Positions 41,753 to 56,642 are shown, counted from the first letter of the stretch. The stretch is DNA of 64,000 nt from an uncultured Rickettsiales bacterium (GCA_900546225.1 URBZ01000002.1:78411-142410), one strand, 5' to 3'. Numbers and translations: made by a program. The notes: generated by a model not told the origin, from the sequence alone.

Positions 41753-43078
41753 TTATTTTAGATCCTCAAATGCTTTCGCCATTGTCGGGTTATTTCTTGT
41801 CAAACGTTTTATTGATAAATTCTGCGCTTTATCATTAGCCAAACGCAGATTATTTTCAGTCCCGAGTAAGGCATCCTTTATTTTTTGCAAGTGATCTATT
41901 GTCTTATCAATTTCTTCTATAGCCTTCTTGAATTTGTCGCTGGCTGTTTTATAATTCCGACCAAAGCGATCTCTAAACTCATTCATTTCTGCTTCAAAAT
42001 TTGAGACATCGATATTGGCCTGCTTGTATTCTGCAATTTGTTGTTTGTATTGAACAGAATTCAGTGCCGCATTCCGTAACAATGTTATAATTGGAATAAA
42101 ACATTGTGGTCTTACAACATACATTTTTGGATATTTGTGCGACACATCAACAATACCAGCATTATATAATTCATTGTCAGATTCCAGCAACGAAACCAAA
42201 ACAGCATATTCACAATTTTTATCCTTTCGGTCTTTATCAAGTTCTTTGAAAAAATCTTCATTTTTGTGTTTTGTGGCTGTTGTATCCATCTCGTTTTTCA
42301 TTTCAAACATAATGGATATAAATTCCGTTTTTTTATCAACATCTGCATAATCACGAAATATAAAATCGCCCTTACTTCCATTCTTGACTTCGTTGTCTTT
42401 TTCGAAATATGCATTTGGGAATGCTGCAGGCCGCATCCGTTCAAATTCAATATGACAGTGTTGTTCCAATGTCTCTCCTACCATTTTTGTGGACATTTTT
42501 GTTTTCATGTCCTTGTATAGCGCAATTTCGACATCTTTTGCCTTTAATTGTGCATCATATTCACTTTTTAATGTTTGTTGTTTTAATTCAATATCTTGTG
42601 CGGCCGCCTTTACTTCGCCCTGCAAGGCAAGAATTTGCGCGTCTTTTTCAAAAAGCATATCCTTTGATTTACTTAATGCCTTTTCTACTGCAATTACCTT
42701 TTCCTGCTCTGATGCATTTATACGTGCTTTGAATTCGACAATTTGTTCATTCAAACATGCAATAGACTTTGCTTTGTCCGCTTCTATACCCGCAATTTTT
42801 AACTTCATTTCAGCCGCAGCATCGCGCTCTGCCGATGAAATTTTCTCTTTGAGTGTTGCTATTTCTTCTTTTAACGCAGAAATTGATAATTCTTTATCGT
42901 TTTTTGCCTGTTCTTTTAATAAGTCGATTTCACTTTTTGATTGCGCCTTATATTGTTGTAATCGCAACGCAACCTCCTTGTCAAACTCAACATTTTTAAT
43001 TTGACTTACAATCGCTGCATAACCCGATTCATCAATAGTGAATTGCGTATTACATTTCGGACATTTTATCTCGTGCAT
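41753..43078 (-). CDS. DUF2130 family protein (N-terminal zinc ribbon, long coiled coil, C-terminal nuclease-like domain)
   Basis: 441 aa from ATG 43078 (RBS AAGGAGAAATAT). N-terminus MHEIKCPKCNTQFTIDESGYAAIV is typical of DUF2130. 17 nt upstream of the RloC-like gene. Confidence 0.65.
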   Translation of the reverse strand: MHEIKCPKCNTQFTIDESGYAAIVSQIKNVEFDKEVALRLQQYKAQSKSEIDLLKEQAKNDKELSISALKEEIATLKEKISSAERDAAAEMKLKIAGIEADKAKSIACLNEQIVEFKARINASEQEKVIAVEKALSKSKDMLFEKDAQILALQGEVKAAAQDIELKQQTLKSEYDAQLKAKDVEIALYKDMKTKMSTKMVGETLEQHCHIEFERMRPAAFPNAYFEKDNEVKNGSKGDFIFRDYADVDKKTEFISIMFEMKNEMDTTATKHKNEDFFKELDKDRKDKNCEYAVLVSLLESDNELYNAGIVDVSHKYPKMYVVRPQCFIPIITLLRNAALNSVQYKQQIAEYKQANIDVSNFEAEMNEFRDRFGRNYKTASDKFKKAIEEIDKTIDHLQKIKDALLGTENNLRLANDKAQNLSIKRLTRNNPTMAKAFEDLK

Positions 43079-43088
43079 ATATTTCTCC

Positions 43089-43421
43089 TTAAATCTTGGA
43101 CACATCTAGGTCAACATGCGCGACACACTGCTGCTCACATTTGTGTTGACACTGTTCATCTGTGTACCATTGACCATCACGCACAACCAAGCGAGACATT
43201 TTTGCAATTTTAAAGCAACGCCACGACGCAGGTATTTCCGTTGGTATCTGCCCTTTGCTGCTTTCTCCAGCAAACTGATACCCTAGCAACTGTTCTTGGC
43301 CTTGGTCATTCAATCCGATTATATGTGGACACACTTCTCGATGAAATCCGTCATAATCAAAAAACAATTGCTGTTTGTGCTCAATTGCACCCCTAATAAC
43401 CATATAGTTTTCAGACGCCAT
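43089..43421 (-). CDS. small WYL-like domain protein (no HTH)
   Basis: About 110 aa from MASENY (RBS AAGAGGAAAAAGC). QLFFDYDGFHREVCPHIIG...LLGYQF...IPASWRCFKIAKMSRL fits the WYL-fold pattern (R.v.P..l...W.R.FrldRI). Stop is 10 nt before the DUF2130 start. Confidence 0.35.
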   Translation of the reverse strand: MASENYMVIRGAIEHKQQLFFDYDGFHREVCPHIIGLNDQGQEQLLGYQFAGESSKGQIPTEIPASWRCFKIAKMSRLVVRDGQWYTDEQCQHKCEQQCVAHVDLDVSKI

Positions 43422-44021
43422 GCTTTTTCCTCTTGTTTTACAATAAAGAGATAGCACACATTAGGAACAAAAGCAATAACTTATTGTAATTACTGTATTT
43501 TAGGAAATTTTTCCCAATATTTTTGTGATATATTGCTTTTATGTGCAACATAACTGGATATATTGTCGCGCATCACGCGCTTTTTTGCACCAATACAGAG
43601 TATTACAGACCACAATTCAACCACAGGTTGTACAAAGACGAAAATTCAATTTATTTTTTACAAACATCCTAACCATCAGACAAAATTCGCGTGATACGCG
43701 AATTTATGCAAATATTCAATCACCGGTTACACAATGCGTTTTTTATAAAGAAATCAACCAATACTAGAATTTACACCTAATTTTGTACTATATGCAAACT
43801 TTTTTACAACTTTACACATTTATACCATTTAGACAATCGACATCTGAAAACCGCCCTGCAATTCAACCATTGGTTGAATTGTTTATATTTTTCTATCACT
43901 GCTTACAAAAACAGCTGTTTTTTCTACCACAGATTGTATTTTATGACAAAATCAACTTATTGTAGAATACACTGTTCGTTTTTTGAGATTTTACGTAATT
44001 ATCACACAAAAAACATATCTC

Positions 44022-44915
44022 GTTATAGGCTGCTTCTCAAATCGTCTTTGATATAATCATTTTTTCGTTCGCTTTTCGCAACTTACAGTTATAGGTTGCT
44101 TCTCAAATCGTCTTTGATATAATGTGAATTACCAGAAATAGGCAATTTAACCTGTTATAGGTTGCTTCTCAAATCGTCTTTGATATAATTTATATGCTTA
44201 GCATGTGCGAGCGTCTACGGTTATAGGTTGCTTCTCAAATCGTCTTTGATATAATCCAGCATTCGCAACGGTACAAATCAACCCGGTTATAGGTTGCTTC
44301 TCAAATCGTCTTTGATATAATCGAAATATGTAGAACAGAGCACTCGAAGGAGTTATAGGTTGCTTCTCAAATCGTCTTTGATATAATGGCACATCTTTGT
44401 CAACCTGCGCCTGCAAAGTTATAGGTTGCTTCTCAAATCGTCTTTGATATAATGTCAACAGTCGCAATAACATTTCCCATCGTGTTATAGGTTGCTTCTC
44501 AAATCGTCTTTGATATAATAAAAAGGATTAAGCTATGATACTCAGAGATGTTATAGGTTGCTTCTCAAATCGTCTTTGATATAATGTCAACAGTCGCAAT
44601 AACATTTCCCATCGTGTTATAGGTTGCTTCTCAAATCGTCTTTGATATAATAACACAATCCCGGTGTGGTATGTAAACCTGGTTATAGGTTGCTTCTCAA
44701 ATCGTCTTTGATATAATCGAATTCAAAGACCTTGATTGGGCGCATTTGTTATAGGTTGCTTCTCAAATCGTCTTTGATATAATATTCGGGGTTGTACCAC
44801 GTAACACAATTCCGTTATAGGTTGCTTCTCAAATCGTCTTTGATATAATAAACCATTCGAACACATTTACACGTGCAATGTTATAGGTTGCTTCTCAAAT
44901 CGTCTTTGATATAAT
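44022..44915 (+). CRISPR. CRISPR array, 14 x 36-bp repeats (GTTATAGGTTGCTTCTCAAATCGTCTTTGATATAAT), 13 spacers of 30 nt, period 66
   Basis: Repeat starts at 44022, 44088, 44154, 44220, 44286, 44352, 44418, 44484, 44550, 44616, 44682, 44748, 44814, 44880. The first repeat is degenerate (GGC for GGT). Spacers 7 and 9 are identical. Each repeat ends in TTTGATATAAT (extended -10). Confidence 0.95.
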
Positions 44916-44922
44916 AGACACA

Positions 44923-44957
44923 CAAAAACCCACTGATAAAAGTGGGTTTTTGTGTAT
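44923..44957. terminator. bidirectional hairpin terminator between the array and cas2 (CACAAAAACCCACT-GATAAA-AGTGGGTTTTTGTG)
   Basis: 14-bp inverted repeat seen directly in the sequence; symmetric, so functional on both strands. Confidence 0.5.
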
Positions 44958-45018
44958 TATATTCAACAAAAAACGTACGTATTGCCATCGGCTGATGACG
45001 AATCGTCTTGTTTTTTTA

Positions 45019-45351
45019 TCAAAACATCAGTAATTGTTGCGAACTGATTTTTTCTGCCGTGGGCGCATCGCCAACCAAAAACAGCATATCTGCGAATTGT
45101 TTTTCCGTGACGGTTAAAACCCTGATTGAACCAGATGGCGGCGTCAAATGTCGCAATCGTTGTAAATGCTTCTCCATTCCGGCCAACCCCTTGACTATTC
45201 GGGAATATACCGAGAATTGCATCATGTAATACCCGTCGTTCAACAAGTCGTTTCTGAAACGCGTAGCATATTTCCGTTCACGCTTTGTGCCAACGGGCAA
45301 ATCAAAGAATACTATTATACGCATAAATTTTTCCTGACGGTTGTACAACAT
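45019..45351 (-). CDS. cas2: CRISPR-associated endoribonuclease Cas2
   Basis: 110 aa; MLYNRQEKFMRIIVFFDLPV...RFRNDLLNDGYYMMQFSVY. Confidence 0.85.
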   Translation of the reverse strand: MLYNRQEKFMRIIVFFDLPVGTKRERKYATRFRNDLLNDGYYMMQFSVYSRIVKGLAGMEKHLQRLRHLTPPSGSIRVLTVTEKQFADMLFLVGDAPTAEKISSQQLLMF

Positions 45352-45352
45352 T

Positions 45353-46267
45353 TTAGTTCTGGGTATTTACTATTTCTGGTGCTGATTTTATAGATGGCAA
45401 TTTCAATGCATCTAAGTTTTTATTACAAAAACATGTTGCCACGGATTCTGCATACAGCGGCATGGCATTCAGCACCGAATGTCGAACACCACCAAAGGCG
45501 CAACTGTGCAATAATACCGACACCAATCGTTGTTTGATATTTGGGGTTAAATGCGCACAACCATCAAAATCAAATGACAGCACAATAAAGTCCACAAATG
45601 GCCGCCACGGTTCAATCATGTCGTCGACCATGCAAAAATTATCAAGTTTGTTACAATGATGTACGCCATAAAAAGGTAACAGACCCGCACCAACCGCGCT
45701 GCGTGCGACACACCCGCGTAATATGGCATAGCCGTAATTCAATGCATGATTTCGTACATCGGCATCATCACTGCGGTTGAAATTTTCCCACAGGGCCGAC
45801 CAATAGATACGAGCCGCAAGCCCCTCTATATTTTTAGTGTCACCAGACGCGACATTTTCAGCCAAAATTTCCAAACGCTTATATGCGGGATTATCACACA
45901 ACTTTAAGATTGCCGATTGATTTCGAATTTTTTGTTTAACAATTTCTTGCCACATACGTTTACGGAATGGCAACGACGATGCAATTTGTGCATGCGCAAT
46001 TTCAGTATATCTGGAATTATTATGAAACGGAAAGAATGCACCATTCGGCAGGTGTGACGCATCACAAGAAAACGCAACCACGCCGTTTTCAGCCAATTCA
46101 GACATCAGCGCAGATGTAATTTGAATCTGGGGATTTTCCAGTATGACAACCGCGATATCTTCTAATGGGATATCTTGGACACCACCGGTGTCACCAGTCC
46201 AGTGCAGTTGCTTGTGCCGAACACAAATCCGACATGGATTTGTCAGGGTCAGAATACGCCAAGACAT
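45353..46267 (-). CDS. cas1: CRISPR-associated endonuclease Cas1 (type II)
   Basis: 304 aa; typical Cas1 beta-sandwich and alpha-helical domain motifs (HALNYGYAILRG...); 1-nt gap to cas2. Confidence 0.9.
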   Translation of the reverse strand: MSWRILTLTNPCRICVRHKQLHWTGDTGGVQDIPLEDIAVVILENPQIQITSALMSELAENGVVAFSCDASHLPNGAFFPFHNNSRYTEIAHAQIASSLPFRKRMWQEIVKQKIRNQSAILKLCDNPAYKRLEILAENVASGDTKNIEGLAARIYWSALWENFNRSDDADVRNHALNYGYAILRGCVARSAVGAGLLPFYGVHHCNKLDNFCMVDDMIEPWRPFVDFIVLSFDFDGCAHLTPNIKQRLVSVLLHSCAFGGVRHSVLNAMPLYAESVATCFCNKNLDALKLPSIKSAPEIVNTQN

Positions 46268-46315
46268 TTAATTGTCCTTTGTTTGTATCCTTTCCCACAC
46301 AGGTGATATAGTGCA

Positions 46316-49264
46316 CTATTTTCGTTTTACAACCGGCGTGCGCTGTTCTGGCAACTTTATCGGTTTTGGTGTACCCAGTAATGACACAGCAAACTTTTCA
46401 ATGTTTGTGCATTTACCAACAGATTTTTTCACAACCTGTGTCCGATTGTTATCTTGGCGATACAATATGAAGTTTGTGCCATGATCCATTTTGGTGATAT
46501 ATCCTTCGTACACACCATCTGCAGCGGTCAGGCGAACATAATCGTCCTTGTGTAACGAACAGACAAATTCACCATCTGGGACTTTGAAGACATCGTCATC
46601 TTTCCCCTTGGTATCGGTAACAAAAATCGGAACACACACGTATTTGCCATGCGCATTGCGCCAAATATCAAATCGAAACATATCGCCACGAACAGCGCGT
46701 CCATGTCGAATTTCCAGTGATCCTTTGTCGCGATTTTTATTCAGACCACGTTTTGAACGATATGATTTTGGATCTGCGTAAATTGTTTCATCGTGCGCCG
46801 CACCCGTGGCGTTACAACGTGGCGGGCGCGATACAATAATATCGTTCAAGCAGGAGATAACATCAGTACGAAAACCGTTCCATGGTTCTTGGATAGAAGT
46901 TTTCAGTGCGGTATACCATGCCTGACCATATTTTTGAATCAGCGCATATTTGTTTTCAAATCGCGCCGACAGCGTTGACAGGTACTTTACCATACCCTGT
47001 GTCGCACATGCGATTACAATCGCGTCTTGGGCATGATGTTTGTCTGATTCATCACGATTTTTGACCAAGCCCCACTGGTGACGCAGATAGTCCGTCAAAG
47101 AACCAGTACGCACCAATACTCGCTTTTTTATATCATCAGATGCAGGCCAATCGATACCATATTCCAAATATTCCGTGGCGAACTTGGCAATAGTGGCATT
47201 ATCATTCGCGTTACGTTCAATAAAACCGTTTTGTTCGGCATCACACTTGGGTAAATCGGTGTTCGTCAATTTTTTGAACTTTGCAGGATTATGCAAGGCA
47301 CGCGCACGCACCGTCATGTCATAAAATTGTTCAGATGTCAGAAACTCATATGGCGTTTTGCTGCCCTTGCGTTGATTACATTCGTGACAGACCAAAACCC
47401 TGTTGCTCTGCGAATTATCAAGGGAACGCGAATATGGCAAAATATGGTCTATTTCATACGCCCCCCAATCACCAGCAGCCAATACCGCATTACAGTATGG
47501 GCACTTGCCACCCTGCTCCATATACAATTTATACTTAAAGTAATTTTTGCCGTACTCTTTGCGGGCTTCTTCGGTTGCCTGACGATTGCGTTCCTGTTCG
47601 CGATTCATGCGCGCAATATCATCGGGCGAATTTTTTAATTCACGACCGATTTCCAAATGGATTCTGTCGGGCGCGCCAAACCGATAAACCATCGCATTAT
47701 AAACCTTGCGTAATTGGACAAGGGTTCGCTTGGCAACTGGTGATGTAATACGATTACCCAGCAAAGTCCAATTTATCTGGTGCAGATGCCCCGCTGGCGC
47801 GCCGTCGTCGCGATTTATATACGACACGTTTTGTGCCCTGAAATCTTTGTTCAGGCCAGATGCAACCGCTTCGTTATACTTTTTGCCATTCTCCATTTCA
47901 GGAATAATTTTTTGCAATGCAGAGATAGACAACTTGATAAATTCTGAACTGGTGATTTGTGCGATTGCGGCGGCATGTTCTGGCAATATTTCAGACACAG
48001 CGCGTTCAATATTTTCCGGCGTTTTCTGGGTTGCGATGACATCAAATATCTTGTCCATCGTGTCTATATCGGTTGTGTATTTGGCCAGTTTATGCCAACC
48101 CGTAAATGCATAGAATTTCTGACATTCGATTTTCTTGATATCAGGTTCAATCCACACCTTGTTTTCTTTGTCATATATACGGGAATAGTTCAACGTTTTG
48201 AACTGTTTATCATCGTCCCATTTCAACAGGTTACGCACGTCGGCATATTTCAGCCCCGTTTTCTTTTTATATAACTCATCTATAACTGTCTGGGTTTCAG
48301 CAACCGTAAAATCATTTTGGCGACACTTGGTCAATGCGACAAACTTTTGCGCCGTTGGCGATTCCTTGGGCGCGACCGGTTCATTCGTGAACGGACATTT
48401 GCCACGCATTTCCGCAATAGATTTGGCCAATGGCGATGCAGATTCATTAAATTTACGTTGGCGACACGCAACAGCCCACCATTTTTCAAACGCGTCCGAA
48501 AAATCATTACCAAAGTCACGTTGCGCGTGCAAAATCATTTCTGCTTCGCGCTTGATTTCCGAACGCGGAATAGAACTTGAATACGTTGATTGCACTTCTG
48601 TTTTTTGCGTGCCGTCTTTTGCGATTTTGACAACGCTTTTTCTGCCGTTGCGCATCTGAGCGTGTTCGGTGGCATACAGCATTTGGCACATTGTTTGATC
48701 CGGATTTTCACGTTGCAGTTTGGCCAAATTATCTTTGATTGCACCAATGGCTTTTAATTCCTCTTTGGACTCTGCGTCGTCCGCCTTTTCTGATTTTGCA
48801 CCAGCTGGCACAGGGTATGTTATATCATCGTACCCGCGATGCTTTGCCAAATGGTACAAGATGCGTCCTGTTTCACGCGGCGTCAGTTTTCGCGTAAAAG
48901 CGTCAACCGCACGCAGTTGCCAGATGTTTATATCCGTATCACGGTTCAGATAAAAATTATTTTGTCCGTCAGATTTTGGTTCTGGAATATCAATCAGATG
49001 GTATTGACGTAAAATATCGCGAATTTCGCGCATACGCTGTGCACGATGTCTGATTCTGCGACGCGCACCACGCGCCGTGCGACGATCGGCGGCATTTTGT
49101 GCCTGATCAAAACAGCGCACACCCGCACCCACTATTTCACCCACGGGGCGGCTGTCGGGCGCGGACGCATCTGTGGTTGATGCCGTTGGATCTGACATTC
49201 TAACAGCGGCCCAACCGATACTGGCGATACCCAAATCGAATCCAAAAATCAAAGACATGTGCAT
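46316..49264 (-). CDS. cas9: Cas9, compact type II-C
   Basis: 982 aa. RuvC-I IFGFDLGIASIGWA. Arg-rich bridge helix. HNH YEIDHILPYSRSLDNSQSNRVLVCHECNQRKG. RuvC-III HHAQDA. No csn2 or cas4 nearby, so subtype II-C. Confidence 0.95.
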   Translation of the reverse strand: MHMSLIFGFDLGIASIGWAAVRMSDPTASTTDASAPDSRPVGEIVGAGVRCFDQAQNAADRRTARGARRRIRHRAQRMREIRDILRQYHLIDIPEPKSDGQNNFYLNRDTDINIWQLRAVDAFTRKLTPRETGRILYHLAKHRGYDDITYPVPAGAKSEKADDAESKEELKAIGAIKDNLAKLQRENPDQTMCQMLYATEHAQMRNGRKSVVKIAKDGTQKTEVQSTYSSSIPRSEIKREAEMILHAQRDFGNDFSDAFEKWWAVACRQRKFNESASPLAKSIAEMRGKCPFTNEPVAPKESPTAQKFVALTKCRQNDFTVAETQTVIDELYKKKTGLKYADVRNLLKWDDDKQFKTLNYSRIYDKENKVWIEPDIKKIECQKFYAFTGWHKLAKYTTDIDTMDKIFDVIATQKTPENIERAVSEILPEHAAAIAQITSSEFIKLSISALQKIIPEMENGKKYNEAVASGLNKDFRAQNVSYINRDDGAPAGHLHQINWTLLGNRITSPVAKRTLVQLRKVYNAMVYRFGAPDRIHLEIGRELKNSPDDIARMNREQERNRQATEEARKEYGKNYFKYKLYMEQGGKCPYCNAVLAAGDWGAYEIDHILPYSRSLDNSQSNRVLVCHECNQRKGSKTPYEFLTSEQFYDMTVRARALHNPAKFKKLTNTDLPKCDAEQNGFIERNANDNATIAKFATEYLEYGIDWPASDDIKKRVLVRTGSLTDYLRHQWGLVKNRDESDKHHAQDAIVIACATQGMVKYLSTLSARFENKYALIQKYGQAWYTALKTSIQEPWNGFRTDVISCLNDIIVSRPPRCNATGAAHDETIYADPKSYRSKRGLNKNRDKGSLEIRHGRAVRGDMFRFDIWRNAHGKYVCVPIFVTDTKGKDDDVFKVPDGEFVCSLHKDDYVRLTAADGVYEGYITKMDHGTNFILYRQDNNRTQVVKKSVGKCTNIEKFAVSLLGTPKPIKLPEQRTPVVKRK

Positions 49265-49380
49265 TCCTCTTTGTTTTTACCCTTGTATTATGAATATAGA
49301 CCCAACAAGCACAAATTACAACCCGACACCATAAAAACAAAAAACTTGACGTCAGCAATAATCTATCATAGCATAGTGAC

Positions 49381-49503
49381 GTAAGAAATCTTTATTGACG
49401 GACGATTTGAGAAGCAACCGTTTATATAATAAAGAATATTTTCTGTGGGGTTTTACGATTACGTATCCCCTGCGCCGTCCCCCAACGGGGGACGGCTTTT
49501 ATT
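49381..49503 (+). ncRNA. tracrRNA (divergent from cas9)
   Basis: GACGATTTGAGAAGCAACC (49401-49419) is perfectly complementary to repeat positions 7-25. Upstream TTGACG-17-TAGCAT promoter (49346-49374). 3' terminator CCGTCCCCCAACGGGGGACGG + TTTTATTTAT (49475-49505). Confidence 0.7.
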
Positions 49504-49515
49504 TATGGCAAACAC

Positions 49516-49548
49516 ATCAAAAAACACCCGCGGGCGGGTGTTTTTGTT
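49516..49548. terminator. terminator AAAAACACCCGCGGGCGGGTGTTTTTGTTTT (3' of the 49549 gene)
   Basis: GC hairpin flanked by A/T runs. Confidence 0.5.
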
Positions 49549-51324
49549 TTATCGGTTGATCATTGTGGGGATTACGATTTCGTCGTTGTAATAGCCCAAG
49601 AATCGTTTTCCGGTGGCGCAGTATATTTTCTGCAACGAATCCTTGTATTCGCGCACGGCCGTGACCCAACGGTTTTCAATATCGGATTGCGCCCCTTGGT
49701 ATCCGGCGTATGCACCCAACGCACCACCAGCACCCGCGCCAATCAATGTGCCTTTTAATCTGGCCTTGTTACCAAAGTCAATAATACCACCATCGGACGC
49801 ATCGACCATTATTGGGTAGAAGTCGCTGATGCTGTATTCGCCGTCCAAAGCATATCCAGCACCACTGGACGTGCGGCCCAAGATTGTATGCCCTGATAAA
49901 TCTGTTTTCAATTTGGCCCAATCAGAACGCTTGTAACCAAATGCCTTGTCATTGACGTCGGCAATCATCGCAGGAATCTGTGTACCGGTGGCAATGGTGG
50001 CACTGGAAATCTTGGCATACATCGCACTGTCAGGATTTGCACCATTTTTCATTTCGTTTTTTTCGGTCAGATAAAACTGTTTTGCTGAATCAGCTTTGAC
50101 CTTTTCGAACCCTTCCTTGGCCACAGCTTCAATGTCTTTGTTCGGGTATGCCTCTAGTTTAATATTCAACAGGGTTTCTTGTTTACAACCAGTATCGTCT
50201 GAGTTACATACTAATGTTGTTTCGTCGCCAGTGTTGTAATAAGCGTTTTTACCAGACAGTGCCGTACTCTTTCTGATAACACCCCACAGGCACTTGGAAT
50301 TTTTATTCTGTGGCTCGGCGGGTTTATCGTCCGTTGTGGCACTGGCGGACGCGGACGCAGTCGCGCTGGCTGAACCGGTATTATTGGACGTATCTGACTT
50401 TTCCTGATTTGATTTTGGTTTTTCGGTGATGCTGGGTATTTTGCAATCCTCGATACGCAGGACAGATTCCCCACTGGCGGCAATGTTGCCAATCATACTG
50501 CCCGCGGCGGCGTTGACACCAGTTGACAGAATTGTGTCACCTGCAACCTTGCCAGAATAGGCATTGCCCGCCATCAGTGCTGCGCCGCTGAGTGCGCCGA
50601 TGATTGTGCCGGTGGTTTTATGTTTGCCACCGCCCAATATACTGTCACTGCCGATTTCGTTTTTGCCGGCGGCATTGCCCGCCAGACCACCAATCACCGT
50701 GCCCGCCGCGATGCGCAGGCCGGCGTTTTGTTTCTGTTCCGCATTTAATACCTGAACCACGTCCGCACGGGTCGGTTCGTTGTCCGCGGGGAATGTAACC
50801 TGTGCCGCGTCGGTGGTGTATGAAAATTCAGGAAAGTCAGAGATATTACATTTGACCGCATCGCCAGCCGCCAAATTTGCGCGCGCCAAAACGGCATCAG
50901 AACCGTCCAGTCCCATTTGATAGCCACGCAATTCGACAACCGCGACACACGTTGATGCGCCACCCGCACCATTGCCAACCGTCGGCGAATCCCATGCAAA
51001 TTCGCCATTTGGATATACCATTGCGCAAGAATCCAGTGTTGCAATACTGACACGCGAATCCGTTTCGCCACGTGATAACTTTTGTGCCAATTCACGATTT
51101 GCCACCCGCACCGGCAGGTTTGTTTCCGCGTCCGCCGACTGGGTCGTGGCAGTTGGTGTGGCGGCGGCCGCTGCGGCCGCTGCAATCTGTTCACGTTGGG
51201 CATTTACCTGTTGATAGCCGGCTGCATAACTGCGCGATGCGTTGCCAACACGCACTGCGGCGGCGGCGTGGCCGCCAGATAATAGAGCATAGATAATAGA
51301 TAATAGATAATAGTTATATTTCAT
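49549..51324 (-). CDS. secreted Gly/Ala-rich (glycine-zipper-like) hypothetical protein
   Basis: 591 aa. N-terminal signal-like MKYNYYLLSIIYALLSGGHAAAA; these first codons are encoded by the left inverted repeat of the adjacent cassette. Many GxxxG repeats. Confidence 0.45.
   Translation of the reverse strand: MKYNYYLLSIIYALLSGGHAAAAVRVGNASRSYAAGYQQVNAQREQIAAAAAAAATPTATTQSADAETNLPVRVANRELAQKLSRGETDSRVSIATLDSCAMVYPNGEFAWDSPTVGNGAGGASTCVAVVELRGYQMGLDGSDAVLARANLAAGDAVKCNISDFPEFSYTTDAAQVTFPADNEPTRADVVQVLNAEQKQNAGLRIAAGTVIGGLAGNAAGKNEIGSDSILGGGKHKTTGTIIGALSGAALMAGNAYSGKVAGDTILSTGVNAAAGSMIGNIAASGESVLRIEDCKIPSITEKPKSNQEKSDTSNNTGSASATASASASATTDDKPAEPQNKNSKCLWGVIRKSTALSGKNAYYNTGDETTLVCNSDDTGCKQETLLNIKLEAYPNKDIEAVAKEGFEKVKADSAKQFYLTEKNEMKNGANPDSAMYAKISSATIATGTQIPAMIADVNDKAFGYKRSDWAKLKTDLSGHTILGRTSSGAGYALDGEYSISDFYPIMVDASDGGIIDFGNKARLKGTLIGAGAGGALGAYAGYQGAQSDIENRWVTAVREYKDSLQKIYCATGKRFLGYYNDEIVIPTMINR
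51278..51324. repeat. left inverted repeat (GATAATAGAGCATAGATAATAGATAATAGATAATAG) of the four-helix-bundle cassette, with AGATAAT tandem units
   Basis: Its reverse complement TATCTATGCTCTATTATC recurs at 51684-51701. Confidence 0.6.
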
Positions 51325-51683
51325 TTTTTCTTTACCTGCTTTTTTGTCTTGATGGTGGCCGTCAATAATTTCATTATCTCTTCACAGTCAGAATTTATAC
51401 TCTCATACCATTCTGTTGGAATTAAACCAACATTCTTTAACAAATCTAACCAATACAACGTTTCTGAACACTCCTTGTACGCAATATAAACTTTGGCTAA
51501 AAAATCATCTGCCGATATTGCGCATTTGGCCTCTGATAGATTTGCGCCGATGCTTGTTCCCGACCGCAACAACTGACGAGATAAAATTATTTCGTTTTTC
51601 TCTCCTGTTAAATATTTACACAACTTATAGATACGAACAGCGAAATCCTTACTCTTTTGTACCGTTACGCTATTTGCCGTCAT
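51321..51683 (-). CDS. four-helix-bundle protein (23S rRNA intervening-sequence protein family, PF05635-like)
   Basis: 120 aa; LLRSGTSIGANLSEA....KECSETLYWLDLL matches the family signature (RSxxSIxANIAEG...KExxETxYWL). Confidence 0.75.
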   Translation of the reverse strand: MTANSVTVQKSKDFAVRIYKLCKYLTGEKNEIILSRQLLRSGTSIGANLSEAKCAISADDFLAKVYIAYKECSETLYWLDLLKNVGLIPTEWYESINSDCEEIMKLLTATIKTKKQVKKK

Positions 51684-51720
51684 ATCTATGCTCTATTATC
51701 TATGCTCTATGCTCTAAAAC
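51681..51720. repeat. right inverted repeat (CATATCTATGCTCTATTATCTATGCTCTATGCTCT), with TATGCTC tandem units
   Basis: Shares the 18-bp core TATCTATGCTCTATTATC in inverse orientation with 51278-51324. Contains the start codon of the 4HB gene and the stop codon of the OMP gene. Confidence 0.6.
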
Positions 51721-52793
51721 TGCAAACGCGCGCGGACACCCAAATCAACCATGCCCAGACGGCCACTTTCGTACCAGTTGGTATAGTGGAACACGCTGTC
51801 GTATGGTGCTTGGTATTCACCGCCCGCATCGTCGCCCAACCATTCGGTTTGGGAAACAACGATACTGCCCGATGTTTTAACCTTGCCTAAATTGGCATAG
51901 CGAACAAAGAAATCCAATTTAATGCCGCCGTCCAGTTCGGTGGTTAAACCACCCTCGACCGAAAAGGCCAACTGTTCTGTTGTGCCGCCGTTGTGATATG
52001 CATATACGTCCGAGATACCCGTCAGGTCACCCGCACCCGCCGCCGATGGATCCATCACGTCATAAAACGTGCCATCGTACACGACATAGTCGGCGATTGT
52101 GTTCAACGAAATACCAACACCAGCCCCGATGTACGGACGCAACGCGCCCCCCGCCAGATAGCCAGTATAAGAATCGATATTATAATACACGTTCAACATC
52201 GTCGTGTTTGCGGTGATTGCGCCACCACTGACCTTGCCCGTGATATAGCCACCATTACCATCGGCGGATTCAACCGTGTCTGGGTAACTGAGGCCCGAAT
52301 AACGCAAGAACGAGAAATCAATACGCACATCGTTATTGATTGCCGCGCCAACCGATACCTGTAATGGAATCACGGTATCAGACGAAAAGTTTGCATCTTT
52401 GAATGCGCCGGGGACGACATACGATTTATCTTCGCCGGCATAGTCGGCGGACATGCTGCCCGTGATTGATGCAGAATACCCCGCGGAAACACCGATGTAC
52501 AGACCACTGTCCGCCAAACGGTCATAGTCCGCTGGCTGGTAATACTGGCGTCCTGCATTTGTTGCAGACGACCCGACACGTGGTAATGCGCCCGTGACAC
52601 GGGTATTGGCCGGCAAACTGGTACTGGTCGTGACCGACGTTTGATTTGGCAATGCGATAACCTGACCCTGGGCGGTGGTTGCCTGATATGTTGTTGGATA
52701 CGCCGCCTGATACACAGGATACGCGGCACGCGCGTCAAATGATACGCCCGCCAAAACACCCGTTAAAACGGCAAAAACAGCAGATTTTTTCAT
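51714..52793 (-). CDS. outer-membrane beta-barrel protein
   Basis: Start at MKKSAVFAVLTGVLAGVSFDARA (signal peptide, ATG 52793). Alternating amphipathic strands. C-terminal ...RARLQF (terminal Phe). Confidence 0.6.
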   Translation of the reverse strand: MKKSAVFAVLTGVLAGVSFDARAAYPVYQAAYPTTYQATTAQGQVIALPNQTSVTTSTSLPANTRVTGALPRVGSSATNAGRQYYQPADYDRLADSGLYIGVSAGYSASITGSMSADYAGEDKSYVVPGAFKDANFSSDTVIPLQVSVGAAINNDVRIDFSFLRYSGLSYPDTVESADGNGGYITGKVSGGAITANTTMLNVYYNIDSYTGYLAGGALRPYIGAGVGISLNTIADYVVYDGTFYDVMDPSAAGAGDLTGISDVYAYHNGGTTEQLAFSVEGGLTTELDGGIKLDFFVRYANLGKVKTSGSIVVSQTEWLGDDAGGEYQAPYDSVFHYTNWYESGRLGMVDLGVRARLQF

Positions 52794-55601: not shown

Positions 55602-56642
55602 TTAACGTTGATGTTTGTCCAGTTCGTGCATCAGGCGTTTGTAACGTTCTGTTTCATTCTTTAATGAATCAGCCACTGATTTGAAATATTCTGTGCGGCC
55701 GGCGTAATCGAACAGATTCAAAACCGTGTGTTGTAAATCGTACACCTTGGCCGTCATTTGATACAGCGATACGTTTTCGGGTGACTTGCGCGGTACGATA
55801 TTTATTTTGTCGTTTGCGCCCAGATATCTGACCGTGTTATCGCCACGCTGGTAAAACACACCGCCCACGCCGTTTTCCATATCCAATGAATGTGACAGGA
55901 CATATGGCACATTGTAATATTCCGTGCGCGTTGTGGGCGCAAAGCATTTGAACATTGGCTGATAAATCAATGTGCGATATGGTGATGCCTGTAACGATGC
56001 CACCACAGGGTGTTTGGTTTTGTTGCGTCCGGGGGTAATGTCACAGGTTGTTTCCGCGTCCTTTCTGATTTTTGATATTTGTGGGTATCCCAAACGGTTT
56101 GCCACCAATCCCATTTCAGATGCATTTGTGAACAGGTAATCGCCAATACACAGTTGAAACGCACTGGGGCATGTCATAAATGTTTCTGTGTTTGTACCCG
56201 CAAATCCGATTCTGGCCTCTGGCTGGTGCAGGCGTTCAACAATCAACATACGATCTTTTGTGCCAATGCGGTCGGCAATATGAAACTGGGGTTCAATGTC
56301 ACGCTTTTCGTCCACCAGCATCAGTTGCCCCAACCACAGGCCAACACGAACCTTGTCAAACCAATCCAATAATGTGTTGATTTCGGTTGCGGTGATGGCG
56401 TTGCCCGCCATTACTTTTTCCAAGACGATTTTGGCGGCGGCCTCCAATTCCCCAAATTTGGTATTGCACGCGGTGCACGCCGGAAATGTCAGTTTGCCAA
56501 ACGTAATCTGCTTTTCGGTCAACGCACCAAAATTACAGACGTGATCATAACTGCCCACCAGTTTACTGAGCCACTGGGGAATAACGTGTTCCTTGTTTTT
56601 ATTTTCCGGCTTTTTACCACAAAAAATACACTGCTGTGCCAA
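55602..56642 (-). CDS. HNH-endonuclease-like domain protein (hypothetical; possibly phage-defence related)
   Basis: 346 aa; N-terminal CIFCGKKPENKNKEHVIPQWL (CxxC...H-IP, an HNH-like motif) plus a second Cys pair PACTACN. Lies immediately after tRNA-Thr. Confidence 0.45.
   Translation of the reverse strand: MAQQCIFCGKKPENKNKEHVIPQWLSKLVGSYDHVCNFGALTEKQITFGKLTFPACTACNTKFGELEAAAKIVLEKVMAGNAITATEINTLLDWFDKVRVGLWLGQLMLVDEKRDIEPQFHIADRIGTKDRMLIVERLHQPEARIGFAGTNTETFMTCPSAFQLCIGDYLFTNASEMGLVANRLGYPQISKIRKDAETTCDITPGRNKTKHPVVASLQASPYRTLIYQPMFKCFAPTTRTEYYNVPYVLSHSLDMENGVGGVFYQRGDNTVRYLGANDKINIVPRKSPENVSLYQMTAKVYDLQHTVLNLFDYAGRTEYFKSVADSLKNETERYKRLMHELDKHQR

What the first reader, a model, noticed from the sequence alone, without database searches (positions are those of the whole stretch)
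49381..49503. tracrRNA located upstream of and divergent from cas9, with its own promoter and terminator
A 19-nt perfect anti-repeat (49401-49419) is complementary to repeat positions 7-25, the part retained in mature II-C crRNA. It is followed by a nexus-like AT-rich stretch and a strong terminator CCGTCCCCCAACGGGGGACGG + U-tract. A TTGACG-17-TAGCAT promoter sits 35 nt upstream. This completes a minimal functional II-C system (cas9, cas1, cas2, array, tracrRNA).
Basis: seen in the sequence. Interest (0 to 1): 0.55.

Follow-up and report, generated by a model that had tools for sequence, protein, structure and literature searches.

The report
Cas9 helper RNA gene (tracrRNA) confirmed
The flagged 120-base stretch is very probably a genuine tracrRNA gene, the small RNA that Cas9 needs to use its CRISPR guides, sitting in the usual place for this kind of system; the one unusual feature is a conserved 5' tail that appears to fold the free RNA shut.

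Summary
Window 49401-49419 (+) is an exact 19-nt inverted copy of repeat positions 7-25. It is the only such site outside the array and by far the best pairing partner for the repeat in 64 kb. It lies 82 nt from the cas9 start, on the opposite strand, between a sigma-70-like promoter and a strong terminator.

About 40 related loci from uncultured gut Alphaproteobacteria (Cas9 33-90% identical) have the same layout. Each has an anti-repeat matching its own repeat, a promoter at a fixed distance, two covarying stem-loops and a terminator. A covariance model built without the window's own clade finds 49399-49475 as the top hit.

This is an ordinary type II-C tracrRNA in the canonical upstream, divergent position: a new member of a known kind. 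No transcript data exist.

One feature was not found described in a limited literature search. The ~20-nt 5' leader is complementary to the segment just 3' of the anti-repeat, including both strands of stem-loop 1. Leader and target covary across 12 clades. The free RNA is therefore predicted to be clamped shut, with the anti-repeat in a loop and stem-loop 1 unformed until crRNA pairs. This is computational only.

The parts
49346..49374 (+). tracrRNA promoter: -35 TTGACG (49346-51), 17-nt spacer, -10 TAGCAT (49369-74)
   Evidence: One search finds a 9/12 match, which alone is not above chance. In 39 relatives a TTGAC(A/T)-16/17-TAnnnT promoter sits at a fixed distance, with the predicted TSS 39-50 nt (mode 44) before the end of the anti-repeat.
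49381..49400 (+). 5' leader of the primary tracrRNA (predicted TSS about 49381, +/-2). 49384-49397 is the 5' strand of the leader clamp. 49393-49398 and 49400 can alternatively pair with repeat positions 26-32.
   Evidence: Near-identity with the closest relative L004 begins around the predicted TSS, while the promoter spacer differs. Clamp pairs have probability 0.8-0.99 in the free RNA ensemble. Cross-clade covariation is shown.
49401..49419 (+). Core anti-repeat, exact complement of repeat positions 7-25
49420..49430 (+). 5-nt bulge GUUUA (49420-24), then lower stem UAUAAU (49425-30) pairing with crRNA repeat positions 1-6, with a G1.U49430 wobble at the spacer-proximal end
   Evidence: Cofold. 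The CGTTT insertion aligns with the CGTTG bulge of Pasteurellaceae and Eikenella tracrRNAs. A G.U at this end is a conserved tracrRNA feature (Faure 2018).
49427..49444 (+). 3' strand of the leader clamp (49427-35 and 49440-44). This overlaps stem-loop 1 (AGAA 49433-36, loop UAUU, UUCU 49441-44), which is the nexus-equivalent hairpin.
   Evidence: SL1 forms only when the anti-repeat is occupied or the leader is removed. The SL1 base pairs covary across the family.
49447..49470 (+). Stem-loop 2: GGGG (49447-50)/CCCC (49467-70) enclosing UACG (49454-57)/CGUA (49462-65)
   Evidence: Family covariation is seen in both stems, e.g. GGGG/CCCC, GGAG/CUCC, AAGG/CCUU and UGAC/GUCA, CGGC/GCCG.
49474..49504 (+). 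Intrinsic terminator: 10-bp stem 49474-83/49487-96, then UUUUAUUU
   Evidence: Relatives of the window clade have a terminator hairpin of unrelated sequence at the same place.
46316..49264 (-). cas9, 982 aa, type II-C
   Evidence: TIGR01865 scores 567 bits. The nearest solved structures are 8hnt and Nme Cas9 6jdq at E about 1e-75. The RuvC Asp and the HNH His/Asn are invariant in alignment A1.
49293..49321 (-). Candidate cas9 promoter TTGTAA-17-TATATT, back to back with the tracrRNA promoter
   Evidence: Consensus scan only. Not supported further.
45019..46267 (-). cas1 (45353-46267) and cas2 (45019-45351)
   Evidence: cas1_NMENI scores 263 bits and cas2 79.9 bits.
44022..44915 (+). CRISPR array: 14 repeats of 36 nt (GTTATAGGTTGCTTCTCAAATCGTCTTTGATATAAT) and 13 spacers of 30 nt. 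crRNA sense is the + strand. Each repeat ends in the extended -10 box TGATATAAT.
   Evidence: The TGnTAnAnT motif is conserved at that end of the repeat in relatives.
44920..44955 (.). Bidirectional terminator between the array and cas2

Best explanation
Window ~49381-49503 (+) encodes the tracrRNA of a complete type II-C CRISPR-Cas9 locus. It is transcribed divergently from cas9, from its own sigma-70 promoter to an intrinsic terminator, giving a primary transcript of about 120 nt.

Proposed mechanism. The anti-repeat (core 49401-49419, plus the lower stem 49425-49430 across a 5-nt bulge) pairs with the 5' part of the repeat in crRNAs. These crRNAs are started inside the array on the + strand by the extended -10 box at the end of each repeat. 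The repeat:anti-repeat duplex, stem-loop 1, stem-loop 2 and the terminator hairpin form the scaffold bound by Cas9. RNase III may trim the duplex.

Shown in silico: the complementarity and its uniqueness; conservation of position, promoter spacing and terminator; covariation of SL1 and SL2; co-variation of each anti-repeat with its own repeat.

Inferred from knowledge of the Nme/Cje II-C systems: transcription, the start site, processing and Cas9 loading.

Added layer (inferred). In the free primary transcript the 5' leader (49384-49397) pairs with 49427-49444. This closes the anti-repeat into a loop and prevents SL1 from forming. Pairing with a crRNA repeat overlaps both ends of this clamp, must open it, and lets SL1 form.
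For: - Unique exact anti-repeat. The 32-bp hybrid is -37.7 kcal/mol, close to the II-C median of -39.4 reported by Faure 2018.
- The locus is complete: cas9, cas1, cas2 and the array.
- 39 relatives have an anti-repeat on the strand opposite cas9. In 36 of them it lies directly upstream of cas9, with the tracr -35 box 7-94 nt from the cas9 start codon.
- The promoter is positionally conserved.
- RNAalifold on an unfitted MAFFT alignment finds the SL1 base, with UA:17/AU:14, CG:21/GC:10 and GC:15/AU:13.
- For SL1 plus SL2, 95.3% of cells are paired against 75.4% in shuffles. There are 85 double-change cells against 23.5, and the covariation score is 0.628 against 0.264 (0/500 shuffles reach it). 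Slid controls stay at or below 0.18.
- Model R1, built without the window clade, hits 49399-49475 (+) at 32.2 bits with all 11 pairs intact. The next hit scores 15 bits.
- The fold of 49381-49510 has z = -3.3.
- Clamp, across clades: own leader:target duplexes average -13.0 kcal/mol against -6.6 for cross-clade pairs (12 clades, permutation p <= 1e-5). The tracr strand is favoured over the antisense strand (-13.0 vs -9.1 kcal/mol, 11/12 clades; Wilcoxon p = 2e-6 over 39 loci).
- Clamp, ensembles: in 35/35 predicted free transcripts the ensemble has a median of 14.6 leader:target pairs and essentially no SL1.
Against: - There is no RNA-level evidence of any kind; the organism is an uncultured MAG lineage.
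- The promoter match in the window is weak (TAGCAT, 9/12) and not above chance on its own.
- No Rfam family matches.
- No protospacer was found for the spacers tried, so activity of the system is not shown.
- For the clamp, the formal pair count on a model-fitted alignment of one subgroup is only modestly above controls: 81.7% vs 76.8% paired, and covariation 0.206 vs 0.190 when slid by one column, because the helix is rich in A/U runs.
- The TSS is predicted, not mapped, and the clamp needs the leader to be transcribed.
Confidence: 0.9

Rival explanations
1. A decayed orphan repeat (array remnant or failed spacer integration) that lies upstream of cas9 by chance and is not a functional RNA gene.
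For: tracrRNA anti-repeats are thought to originate from relocated repeats (Faure 2018). Only 19 nt are exactly complementary. The promoter match in the window is weak.
Against: The element is inverted relative to the array. It is conserved at the same place in about 40 loci down to 33% Cas9 identity. It tracks each locus's own repeat and is always followed by covarying SL1/SL2 and a terminator.
Confidence: 0.03
2. The conserved structure belongs to the cas9 mRNA leader, or to an antisense regulator read on the - strand, rather than to a + strand small RNA.
For: In most relatives the cas9 start codon is only 17-28 nt from the tracr -35 box. The cas9 promoter must therefore overlap the tracr promoter or gene, and cas9 transcription could run antisense to it.
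Against: In the window there is room (82 nt) for a separate cas9 promoter. The terminator and promoter are oriented for the + strand. Helices are more stable on the tracr strand than on its complement, because G.U pairs become C.A: -13.0 vs -9.1 kcal/mol in 11/12 clades. The anti-repeat must be on the + strand to pair with crRNAs driven by the TGATATAAT boxes.
Confidence: 0.03
3. The element is a tracrRNA, but the leader:post-anti-repeat helix is only a 5'-terminal stabilising stem (protection from 5'-end-dependent RNases). Alternatively it is an evolutionary echo of the palindromic repeat ends. In neither case would it be a switch that gates SL1, crRNA pairing or Cas9 loading.
For: Pasteurellaceae II-C tracrRNAs also close their anti-repeat by pairing its two ends, while SL1 forms independently. 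The helix starts within 3 nt of the predicted 5' end, as stabilising stems do.
Against: In this family the leader is complementary to both strands of SL1, skipping its loop or inserted apical stem (e.g. L034). It covaries with SL1 sequences that have nothing to do with the repeat. SL1 is predicted absent in all 35 free RNAs. Stabilisation and gating are not mutually exclusive.
Confidence: 0.4
4. A tracr-L-like natural single guide that represses the adjacent cas9 promoter, as in S. pyogenes.
For: The tracrRNA and cas9 promoters are divergent and adjacent.
Against: The leader is only about 20 nt. It does not fold back on the anti-repeat. There is no match of 8 nt or more between 49375-49445 and the cas9 promoter/start region 49230-49346 on either strand. 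tracr-L was defined by a match of 11 bp or more plus a PAM, in II-A.
Confidence: 0.02

Closest known systems
Type II-C tracrRNAs of the Neisseria meningitidis / Pasteurellaceae group (represented here by loci L058 Rodentibacter, L065 Haemophilus parainfluenzae, L067 Actinobacillus, L062 Eikenella)
   Same: - The gene lies upstream of cas9 on the opposite strand.
- The array is read opposite to the cas operon from promoters inside the repeats (Chylinski 2013; Feussner 2025).
- The ..CCGUU.. bulge, then the lower stem, then AAUAA(A/G) are shared.
- The order is repeat:anti-repeat duplex, SL1, then SL2 with a GCUCUG..CAUC-like frame.
- The free RNA closes its anti-repeat into a loop.
   Different: - Cas9 is only about 30% identical and about 100 aa shorter (982 aa).
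- The anti-repeat covers about two thirds of the repeat rather than all of it.
- The 5' end is a leader unrelated to the repeat. It pairs with the SL1 region, so SL1 is sequestered in the free RNA, whereas in the Pasteurellaceae RNAs SL1 folds independently.
- The window clade has an extra terminator hairpin after SL2.
Campylobacter jejuni type II-C tracrRNA/Cas9 (984 aa)
   Same: A compact Cas9 of similar size with a minimal cas9-cas1-cas2 locus. crRNAs come from repeat-internal promoters. An AAUAAAG junction follows the anti-repeat (from my own knowledge of the Cje scaffold; not tested here).
   Different: The solved Cje Cas9 chain matches only residues 2-541 of the query, at E 2.5e-50 (5x2g). 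To my knowledge the tracrRNA gene lies elsewhere in the Cje locus, and the Cje scaffold forms a triple helix. Nothing here tests for that.
Streptococcus pyogenes tracrRNA, including the long form tracr-L (Workman et al.)
   Same: It lies upstream of cas9 and is divergent from it. A 5' extension of the tracrRNA has an intramolecular pairing role.
   Different: That system is II-A. tracr-L folds onto the anti-repeat to mimic a crRNA and guides Cas9 to the cas9 promoter. Here the leader pairs beyond the anti-repeat, with SL1, and has no match to the promoter.

Membership tests
tracrRNA (trans-activating CRISPR RNA of type II systems) | Anti-repeat complementary to the CRISPR repeat of the same locus, on the strand able to pair with the crRNA | tested here: met
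   19-nt exact core; 32 bp in total at -37.7 kcal/mol; unique in the window. It is on the + strand, as are the repeat-internal TGATATAAT boxes.
tracrRNA (trans-activating CRISPR RNA of type II systems) | Non-coding gene next to cas9 or the array, with its own promoter and Rho-independent terminator | tested here: met
   No ORF of 60 aa or more lies in 49265-49548. The promoter and terminator are found. Promoter position is conserved in 39 relatives. All of this is sequence-level only.
tracrRNA (trans-activating CRISPR RNA of type II systems) | Conserved scaffold 3' of the anti-repeat (junction, nexus/SL1, further hairpins) supported by covariation | tested here: met
   An independent covariance model hits 49399-49475.
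tracrRNA (trans-activating CRISPR RNA of type II systems) | First repeat nucleotide next to the spacer is paired, typically as a G.U | tested here: met
   G1 of the repeat pairs with U49430. The feature is described by Faure 2018.
tracrRNA (trans-activating CRISPR RNA of type II systems) | Expressed; pairs with pre-crRNA; required for crRNA maturation and Cas9 interference | not testable with these tools
   No transcriptome or genetics is available for this uncultured lineage.
Type II-C CRISPR-Cas | Minimal operon cas9-cas1-cas2, without csn2 or cas4 | tested here: met
   One search identifies the three genes. There is no further ORF between cas2 and the array or upstream of cas9. Cas1 matches the cas1_NMENI model.
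Type II-C CRISPR-Cas | Array transcribed opposite to the cas operon from promoters embedded in each repeat | tested here: inconclusive
   A perfect extended -10 box (TGATATAAT) lies at the 3' end of every repeat on the + strand, and the motif is conserved in relatives. Transcription itself is not observed.
Rfam tracrRNA family | Match to the curated covariance model | tested here: not met
   No tracrRNA hit even at E <= 1. To my knowledge that model represents II-A Streptococcus-type tracrRNAs, so this does not argue against a II-C tracrRNA.
tracr-L natural single guide (S. pyogenes type autoregulation) | Long 5' extension that folds onto the anti-repeat and carries a match of 11 nt or more to the cas9 promoter next to a PAM | tested here: not met
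   The leader is about 20 nt and pairs with the SL1 region, not the anti-repeat. The longest match to the cas9 promoter region is 7 nt.

The most novel reading that the evidence does not exclude
In this alphaproteobacterial II-C family the primary tracrRNA may be a self-locked switch. A covarying 5' leader pairs with the junction and with both strands of stem-loop 1, the hairpin Cas9 scaffolds depend on. The central anti-repeat is displayed as a loop that acts as a toehold. Only an RNA with repeat-length complementarity can invade both ends of the clamp, open it and let SL1 form. Cas9 would then load productively only onto tracrRNA that has already found a true crRNA. This would be a built-in proofreading or ordering step against tracrRNA-only or non-canonical (host mRNA) guides. 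In most relatives this sits on top of cas9 and tracrRNA promoters that physically overlap.
Probability: 0.4. Interest if true: 0.6.

Novelty: new member of a known kind. Interest (0 to 1): 0.38.

Why it matters
As a tracrRNA the element is routine. It completes the annotation of a compact (982 aa) II-C Cas9 system from an uncultured gut alphaproteobacterium. It also gives the sequence needed to design an sgRNA: repeat 1-24, a GAAA loop, then 49401-49503.

The family-wide comparison gives a covariation-supported scaffold for about 40 small Cas9 orthologues.

If the leader clamp is functional, it would be a natural example of a tracrRNA whose Cas9-binding module is conditionally folded. That bears on how cells avoid unproductive or off-target Cas9 loading, and it could be copied for conditional guide RNAs. 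It also warns that full-length native tracrRNAs of this family may behave differently in vitro from trimmed sgRNAs.

Tried and rejected
- **Rfam scan of 43000-52000 at E <= 1.** Only sub-threshold chance hits (ctRNA_pND324, snR43, leader peptides), all coinciding with terminators.
- **Protospacer search.** All 12 distinct spacers against 50,697 phage records (blastn), and three spacers as exact patterns against IMG/VR: no hits. No PAM and no evidence of recent activity.
- **tracr-L-type autoregulation.** Rejected.
- **MAFFT plus RNAalifold on leader-to-SL2 sequences.** This recovered only the SL1 base. The leader helix was not predicted, because its register shifts by 1-3 nt and its bulges differ between clades.
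- **Covariance model of the clamp (R2).** It reached only the L018-like subgroup and also hit array repeats, so the formal count covers limited diversity and is only modestly above controls.
- **Second-best repeat-pairing site at 56401 (+).** At -26.4 kcal/mol it lies inside a coding region, is far weaker than the tracrRNA site, and was not pursued.
- **Literature search for an intramolecular tracrRNA leader structure.** Nothing relevant was found, but only a few queries were run on an open-access library.

Full report
**What is at the coordinates.**
- The window carries a CRISPR array of 14 repeats of 36 nt (GTTATAGGTTGCTTCTCAAATCGTCTTTGATATAAT on the + strand) and 13 spacers of 30 nt, at 44022-44915.
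- Three - strand genes follow: cas2 (45019-45351), cas1 (45353-46267; cas1_NMENI, 263 bits) and a 982-aa cas9 (46316-49264; TIGR01865, 567 bits).
- The nearest solved Cas9 structures are 8hnt and Neisseria meningitidis Cas9, at E about 1e-75.
- The RuvC aspartate and the HNH His/Asn are invariant in an alignment with 23 homologues.
- There is no csn2 or cas4, so the locus is type II-C.
- The stretch 49265-49548 between cas9 and a convergent 591-aa ORF has no ORF of 60 aa or more.

**The observation.**
- 49401-49419 (+) is the exact reverse complement of repeat positions 7-25. With up to three mismatches, the only other matches in 64 kb are the 14 repeats themselves, against 0.02 expected by chance.
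- A thermodynamic scan of the whole window, both strands, with repeat positions 1-30 puts this site at -36 kcal/mol. Background is -10.5 +/- 3.2, and the runner-up is -26.4, inside a gene at 56401.
- The hexamers TTGACG (49346-51) and TAGCAT (49369-74) with a 17-nt spacer are present, as is the terminator 49474-49496 followed by TTTTATTT. The promoter match (9/12) is no better than what shuffled sequence gives.
- The fold of 49381-49510 is more stable than shuffles (z = -3.3).
- Rfam has no match.

**Strand logic.**
- An anti-repeat on the + strand requires crRNAs read from the + strand of the array, that is, towards cas2 and opposite to the cas operon.
- This fits the sequence. Every repeat ends in TGATATAAT, a perfect extended -10 box. 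The same TGnTAnAnT motif is kept at that end of the repeats of relatives even where the rest of the repeat differs.
- Repeat-internal promoters and an array read opposite to the cas operon are the documented type II-C arrangement in N. meningitidis and C. jejuni.
- A bidirectional terminator (44920-44955) separates the array from cas2.

**Pairing in detail.**
- Cofolding the repeat with the predicted RNA gives 32 base pairs at -37.7 kcal/mol.
- crRNA 1-6 pairs with 49425-49430. The first pair is G.U.
- A 5-nt tracr bulge (49420-24) follows.
- crRNA 7-26 pairs with 49400-49419.
- C49399 is bulged out.
- crRNA 27-32 pairs weakly with 49393-49398.
- The energy is close to the -39.4 kcal/mol median that Faure et al. 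report for II-C hybrids. The terminal G.U is the feature they describe as conserved.
- The CGTTT bulge aligns with the CGTTG bulge of Pasteurellaceae and Eikenella tracrRNAs.

**Comparative evidence: position and promoter.**
- Cas9 homologues come almost entirely from uncultured gut Alphaproteobacteria ('Rickettsiales', 'Azospirillum sp.' MAGs). I fetched 79 loci.
- In 39 alphaproteobacterial loci (Cas9 33-90% identical), the best non-array match to the locus's own repeat is an inverted copy of 16-27 exact nt on the strand opposite cas9. Repeats differ between clades, so the anti-repeat tracks its repeat.
- In 36 of these loci the tracr -35 box lies 7-94 nt from the cas9 start codon. In three loci the element is displaced 1-4 kb upstream.
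- A fortieth, Anaerobiospirillum-labelled locus (L038) has its anti-repeat between cas2 and the array instead.
- A TTGAC(A/T)-16/17-TAnnnT promoter sits at a constant distance. The predicted start is 39-50 nt (mode 44) before the ..ATAA|TAA.. junction.
- In the closest relative (L004, 90% Cas9 identity), near-identity begins around the predicted start and ends at stem-loop 2. The promoter spacer and the terminator differ in sequence but are retained.

**Comparative evidence: scaffold.**
- Every locus has a short stem-loop 1 after the junction. It then has a GGGG-CUC-[stem]-U-CCCC stem-loop 2, followed either by a U-run or by a separate terminator hairpin.
- RNAalifold on a plain MAFFT alignment predicts the SL1 base, with compensatory changes in about half the sequences.
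- I built a covariance model from 29 sequences that excluded the window's own clade. It finds 49399-49475 (+) as the top hit in the window (32.2 bits, E 9e-5, all 11 pairs standard). The next hit scores 15 bits, and the window's own repeats score 8-12 bits.
- On the 39 family members aligned to that model, 95.3% of cells are paired against 75.4% in shuffles. There are 85 double-change cells against 23.5. The covariation score is 0.628 against 0.264 (0/500), and slid controls stay at or below 0.18. That alignment is fitted to the model, so these counts lean towards it; one search is the unfitted check.

**Verdict on the interpretation.** The element meets every sequence-level criterion for a tracrRNA and belongs to a conserved family. 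Its position upstream of cas9 is where Chylinski et al. found most II-A and II-C anti-repeats. The Pasteurellaceae and Eikenella loci fetched here show the same divergent orientation. It is therefore a new member of a known kind. What is missing is any RNA or activity data. No protospacers were found for the spacers tried.

**An unexpected conserved feature: the leader clamp.**
- The ~20 nt between the predicted start and the anti-repeat are not complementary to the repeat. They are complementary to the segment immediately 3' of the anti-repeat.
- In the window, 49389-49397 pairs with 49427-49435, and 49384-49388 pairs with 49440-49444. The pair probabilities are 0.8-0.99.
- This uses both strands of SL1, which has probability 0.005 in the free RNA. 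SL1 appears once the anti-repeat is paired with a repeat or the leader is removed.
- Leader and target change together between clades. Examples are UCUUUAUU/AAUAAAGA (window), UAUAUUAGUU/AACUAAUAUA (L016), GUAUUUCU/AGAAAUAC (L013), AAAAAAUGUU/AACAUUUUUU (L032) and GAAGUUUUUGA/UCGAAAAUUUC (L018).
- In L034 the leader pairs on both sides of an inserted SL1 apical stem.

**Statistics for the clamp.**
- For 12 clade representatives, own leader:target duplexes average -13.0 kcal/mol against -6.6 for cross-clade combinations (permutation p <= 1e-5).
- The helices are more stable on the tracr strand than on the complementary strand (-13.0 vs -9.1, 11/12 clades; 39 loci, Wilcoxon p = 2e-6). This argues for an RNA-level constraint on this strand.
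- In all 35 full-length predictions the ensemble holds a median of 14.6 leader:target pairs and essentially no SL1.
- A formal pair count on a model-fitted alignment of one subgroup is only modestly above its controls. It gives 9 of 15 pairs with double changes and covariation 0.206 against 0.131 in shuffles. Sliding by one column still gives 0.190, because of A/U runs.

**What the clamp might mean.**
- The clamp and a 25-32 bp crRNA duplex are mutually exclusive. They overlap at both ends, and together they would form a pseudoknot around a rigid duplex.
- The simplest reading is a closed free tracrRNA that is opened by crRNA pairing, which then allows the Cas9-binding hairpin to fold.
- A 5'-end stabilising stem is the main rival reading and is not exclusive with gating.
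- Pasteurellaceae tracrRNAs also close their anti-repeat, by pairing its two palindromic ends, but leave SL1 free. The new element here is the sequestration of SL1.
- I found no description of this in a limited literature search.
- The S. pyogenes tracr-L mechanism is different, and its criteria are not met here.

**Other context.**
- In most relatives the cas9 start codon is 17-28 nt from the tracr -35 box, so the cas9 promoter must overlap the tracrRNA promoter or start. A TTG(C/A)A motif on the cas9 strand sits at tracr +1.
- The window clade has 82-94 nt of spacing and a separate candidate promoter.
- The first repeat carries a T-to-C change at position 9 (44030), inside the anti-repeat pairing region. 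A terminator lies upstream of the array (43858-43882).
- Both match the ways II-C systems are proposed to suppress the 'extraneous' crRNA.

Noticed in passing
window 49384-49397 with 49427-49435 and 49440-49444; same position in L001-L053: The 5' leader of the predicted tracrRNA is complementary to the junction and to both strands of stem-loop 1. Leader and target covary across 12 clades. The free RNA is predicted to be closed, with the anti-repeat in a loop and SL1 unformed.
   Followed up: yes
L010-L053 (e.g. L021 5931-5990); window 49265-49345 for contrast: In most relatives the cas9 start codon is only 17-28 nt from the tracrRNA -35 box, so the cas9 promoter must overlap the tracrRNA promoter or start. 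A TTG(C/A)A motif lies on the cas9 strand at tracr +1. The window clade instead has 82-94 nt of spacing and a separate TTGTAA-17-TATATT candidate (49321-49293, - strand).
   Followed up: partly
window 44022-44057 and 43858-43882: The promoter-distal first repeat has a single T-to-C change at repeat position 9 (44030), inside the region that pairs with the tracrRNA. A terminator-like hairpin lies about 140 nt upstream of the array on the + strand. Both resemble the published II-C strategies against an 'extraneous' crRNA.
   Followed up: partly
window 44454-44483 and 44586-44615: Spacers 7 and 9 are identical (GTCAACAGTCGCAATAACATTTCCCATCGT). This suggests either an internal duplication of a repeat-spacer unit pair or a repeated acquisition.
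   Followed up: no
window 44049-44057 and every repeat 3' end; repeats of L001-L079: Each repeat ends in TGATATAAT, a perfect extended -10 box on the + strand. The TGnTAnAnT motif is kept in relatives with otherwise different repeats, including Clostridia and Neisseriaceae loci.
   Followed up: partly
window 49420-49424; compare L010-L053 and L058-L067: Only the window's clade (L001, L003-L006, window) has the 5-nt bulge GUUUA between the core anti-repeat and the lower stem. Other alphaproteobacterial clades have an uninterrupted 22-27 nt anti-repeat, whereas Pasteurellaceae and Eikenella tracrRNAs have a similar CGUUG bulge.
   Followed up: partly
L019 80-106, L020 1129-1151, L026 1521-1541; L038 6562-6586: In three relatives the tracrRNA lies 1-4 kb upstream of cas9, possibly because of insertions between them. 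In L038 (labelled Anaerobiospirillum) it lies between cas2 and the array, as in two Neisseriaceae MAGs (L064, L073).
   Followed up: no
L055-L063, L066, L069, L074-L079 (Clostridia MAGs): Here the repeat-like copy upstream of cas9 is in direct, not inverted, orientation relative to the array. If the arrays are read opposite to cas9, this implies a tracrRNA co-directional with cas9.
   Followed up: no
window 49520-49545 and 49549-51324 (-): A second, bidirectional terminator-like hairpin lies just after the tracrRNA terminator. It serves a convergent 591-aa ORF that has no Pfam or NCBIfam match. The next gene encodes a 23S rRNA intervening-sequence protein (51321-51683).
   Followed up: no
window 56401-56470 (+): This is the second-best predicted pairing site for the repeat in the window (-26.4 kcal/mol, about 5 sd from background). 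It lies inside a - strand ORF (55602-56642) and is probably a chance match.
   Followed up: no
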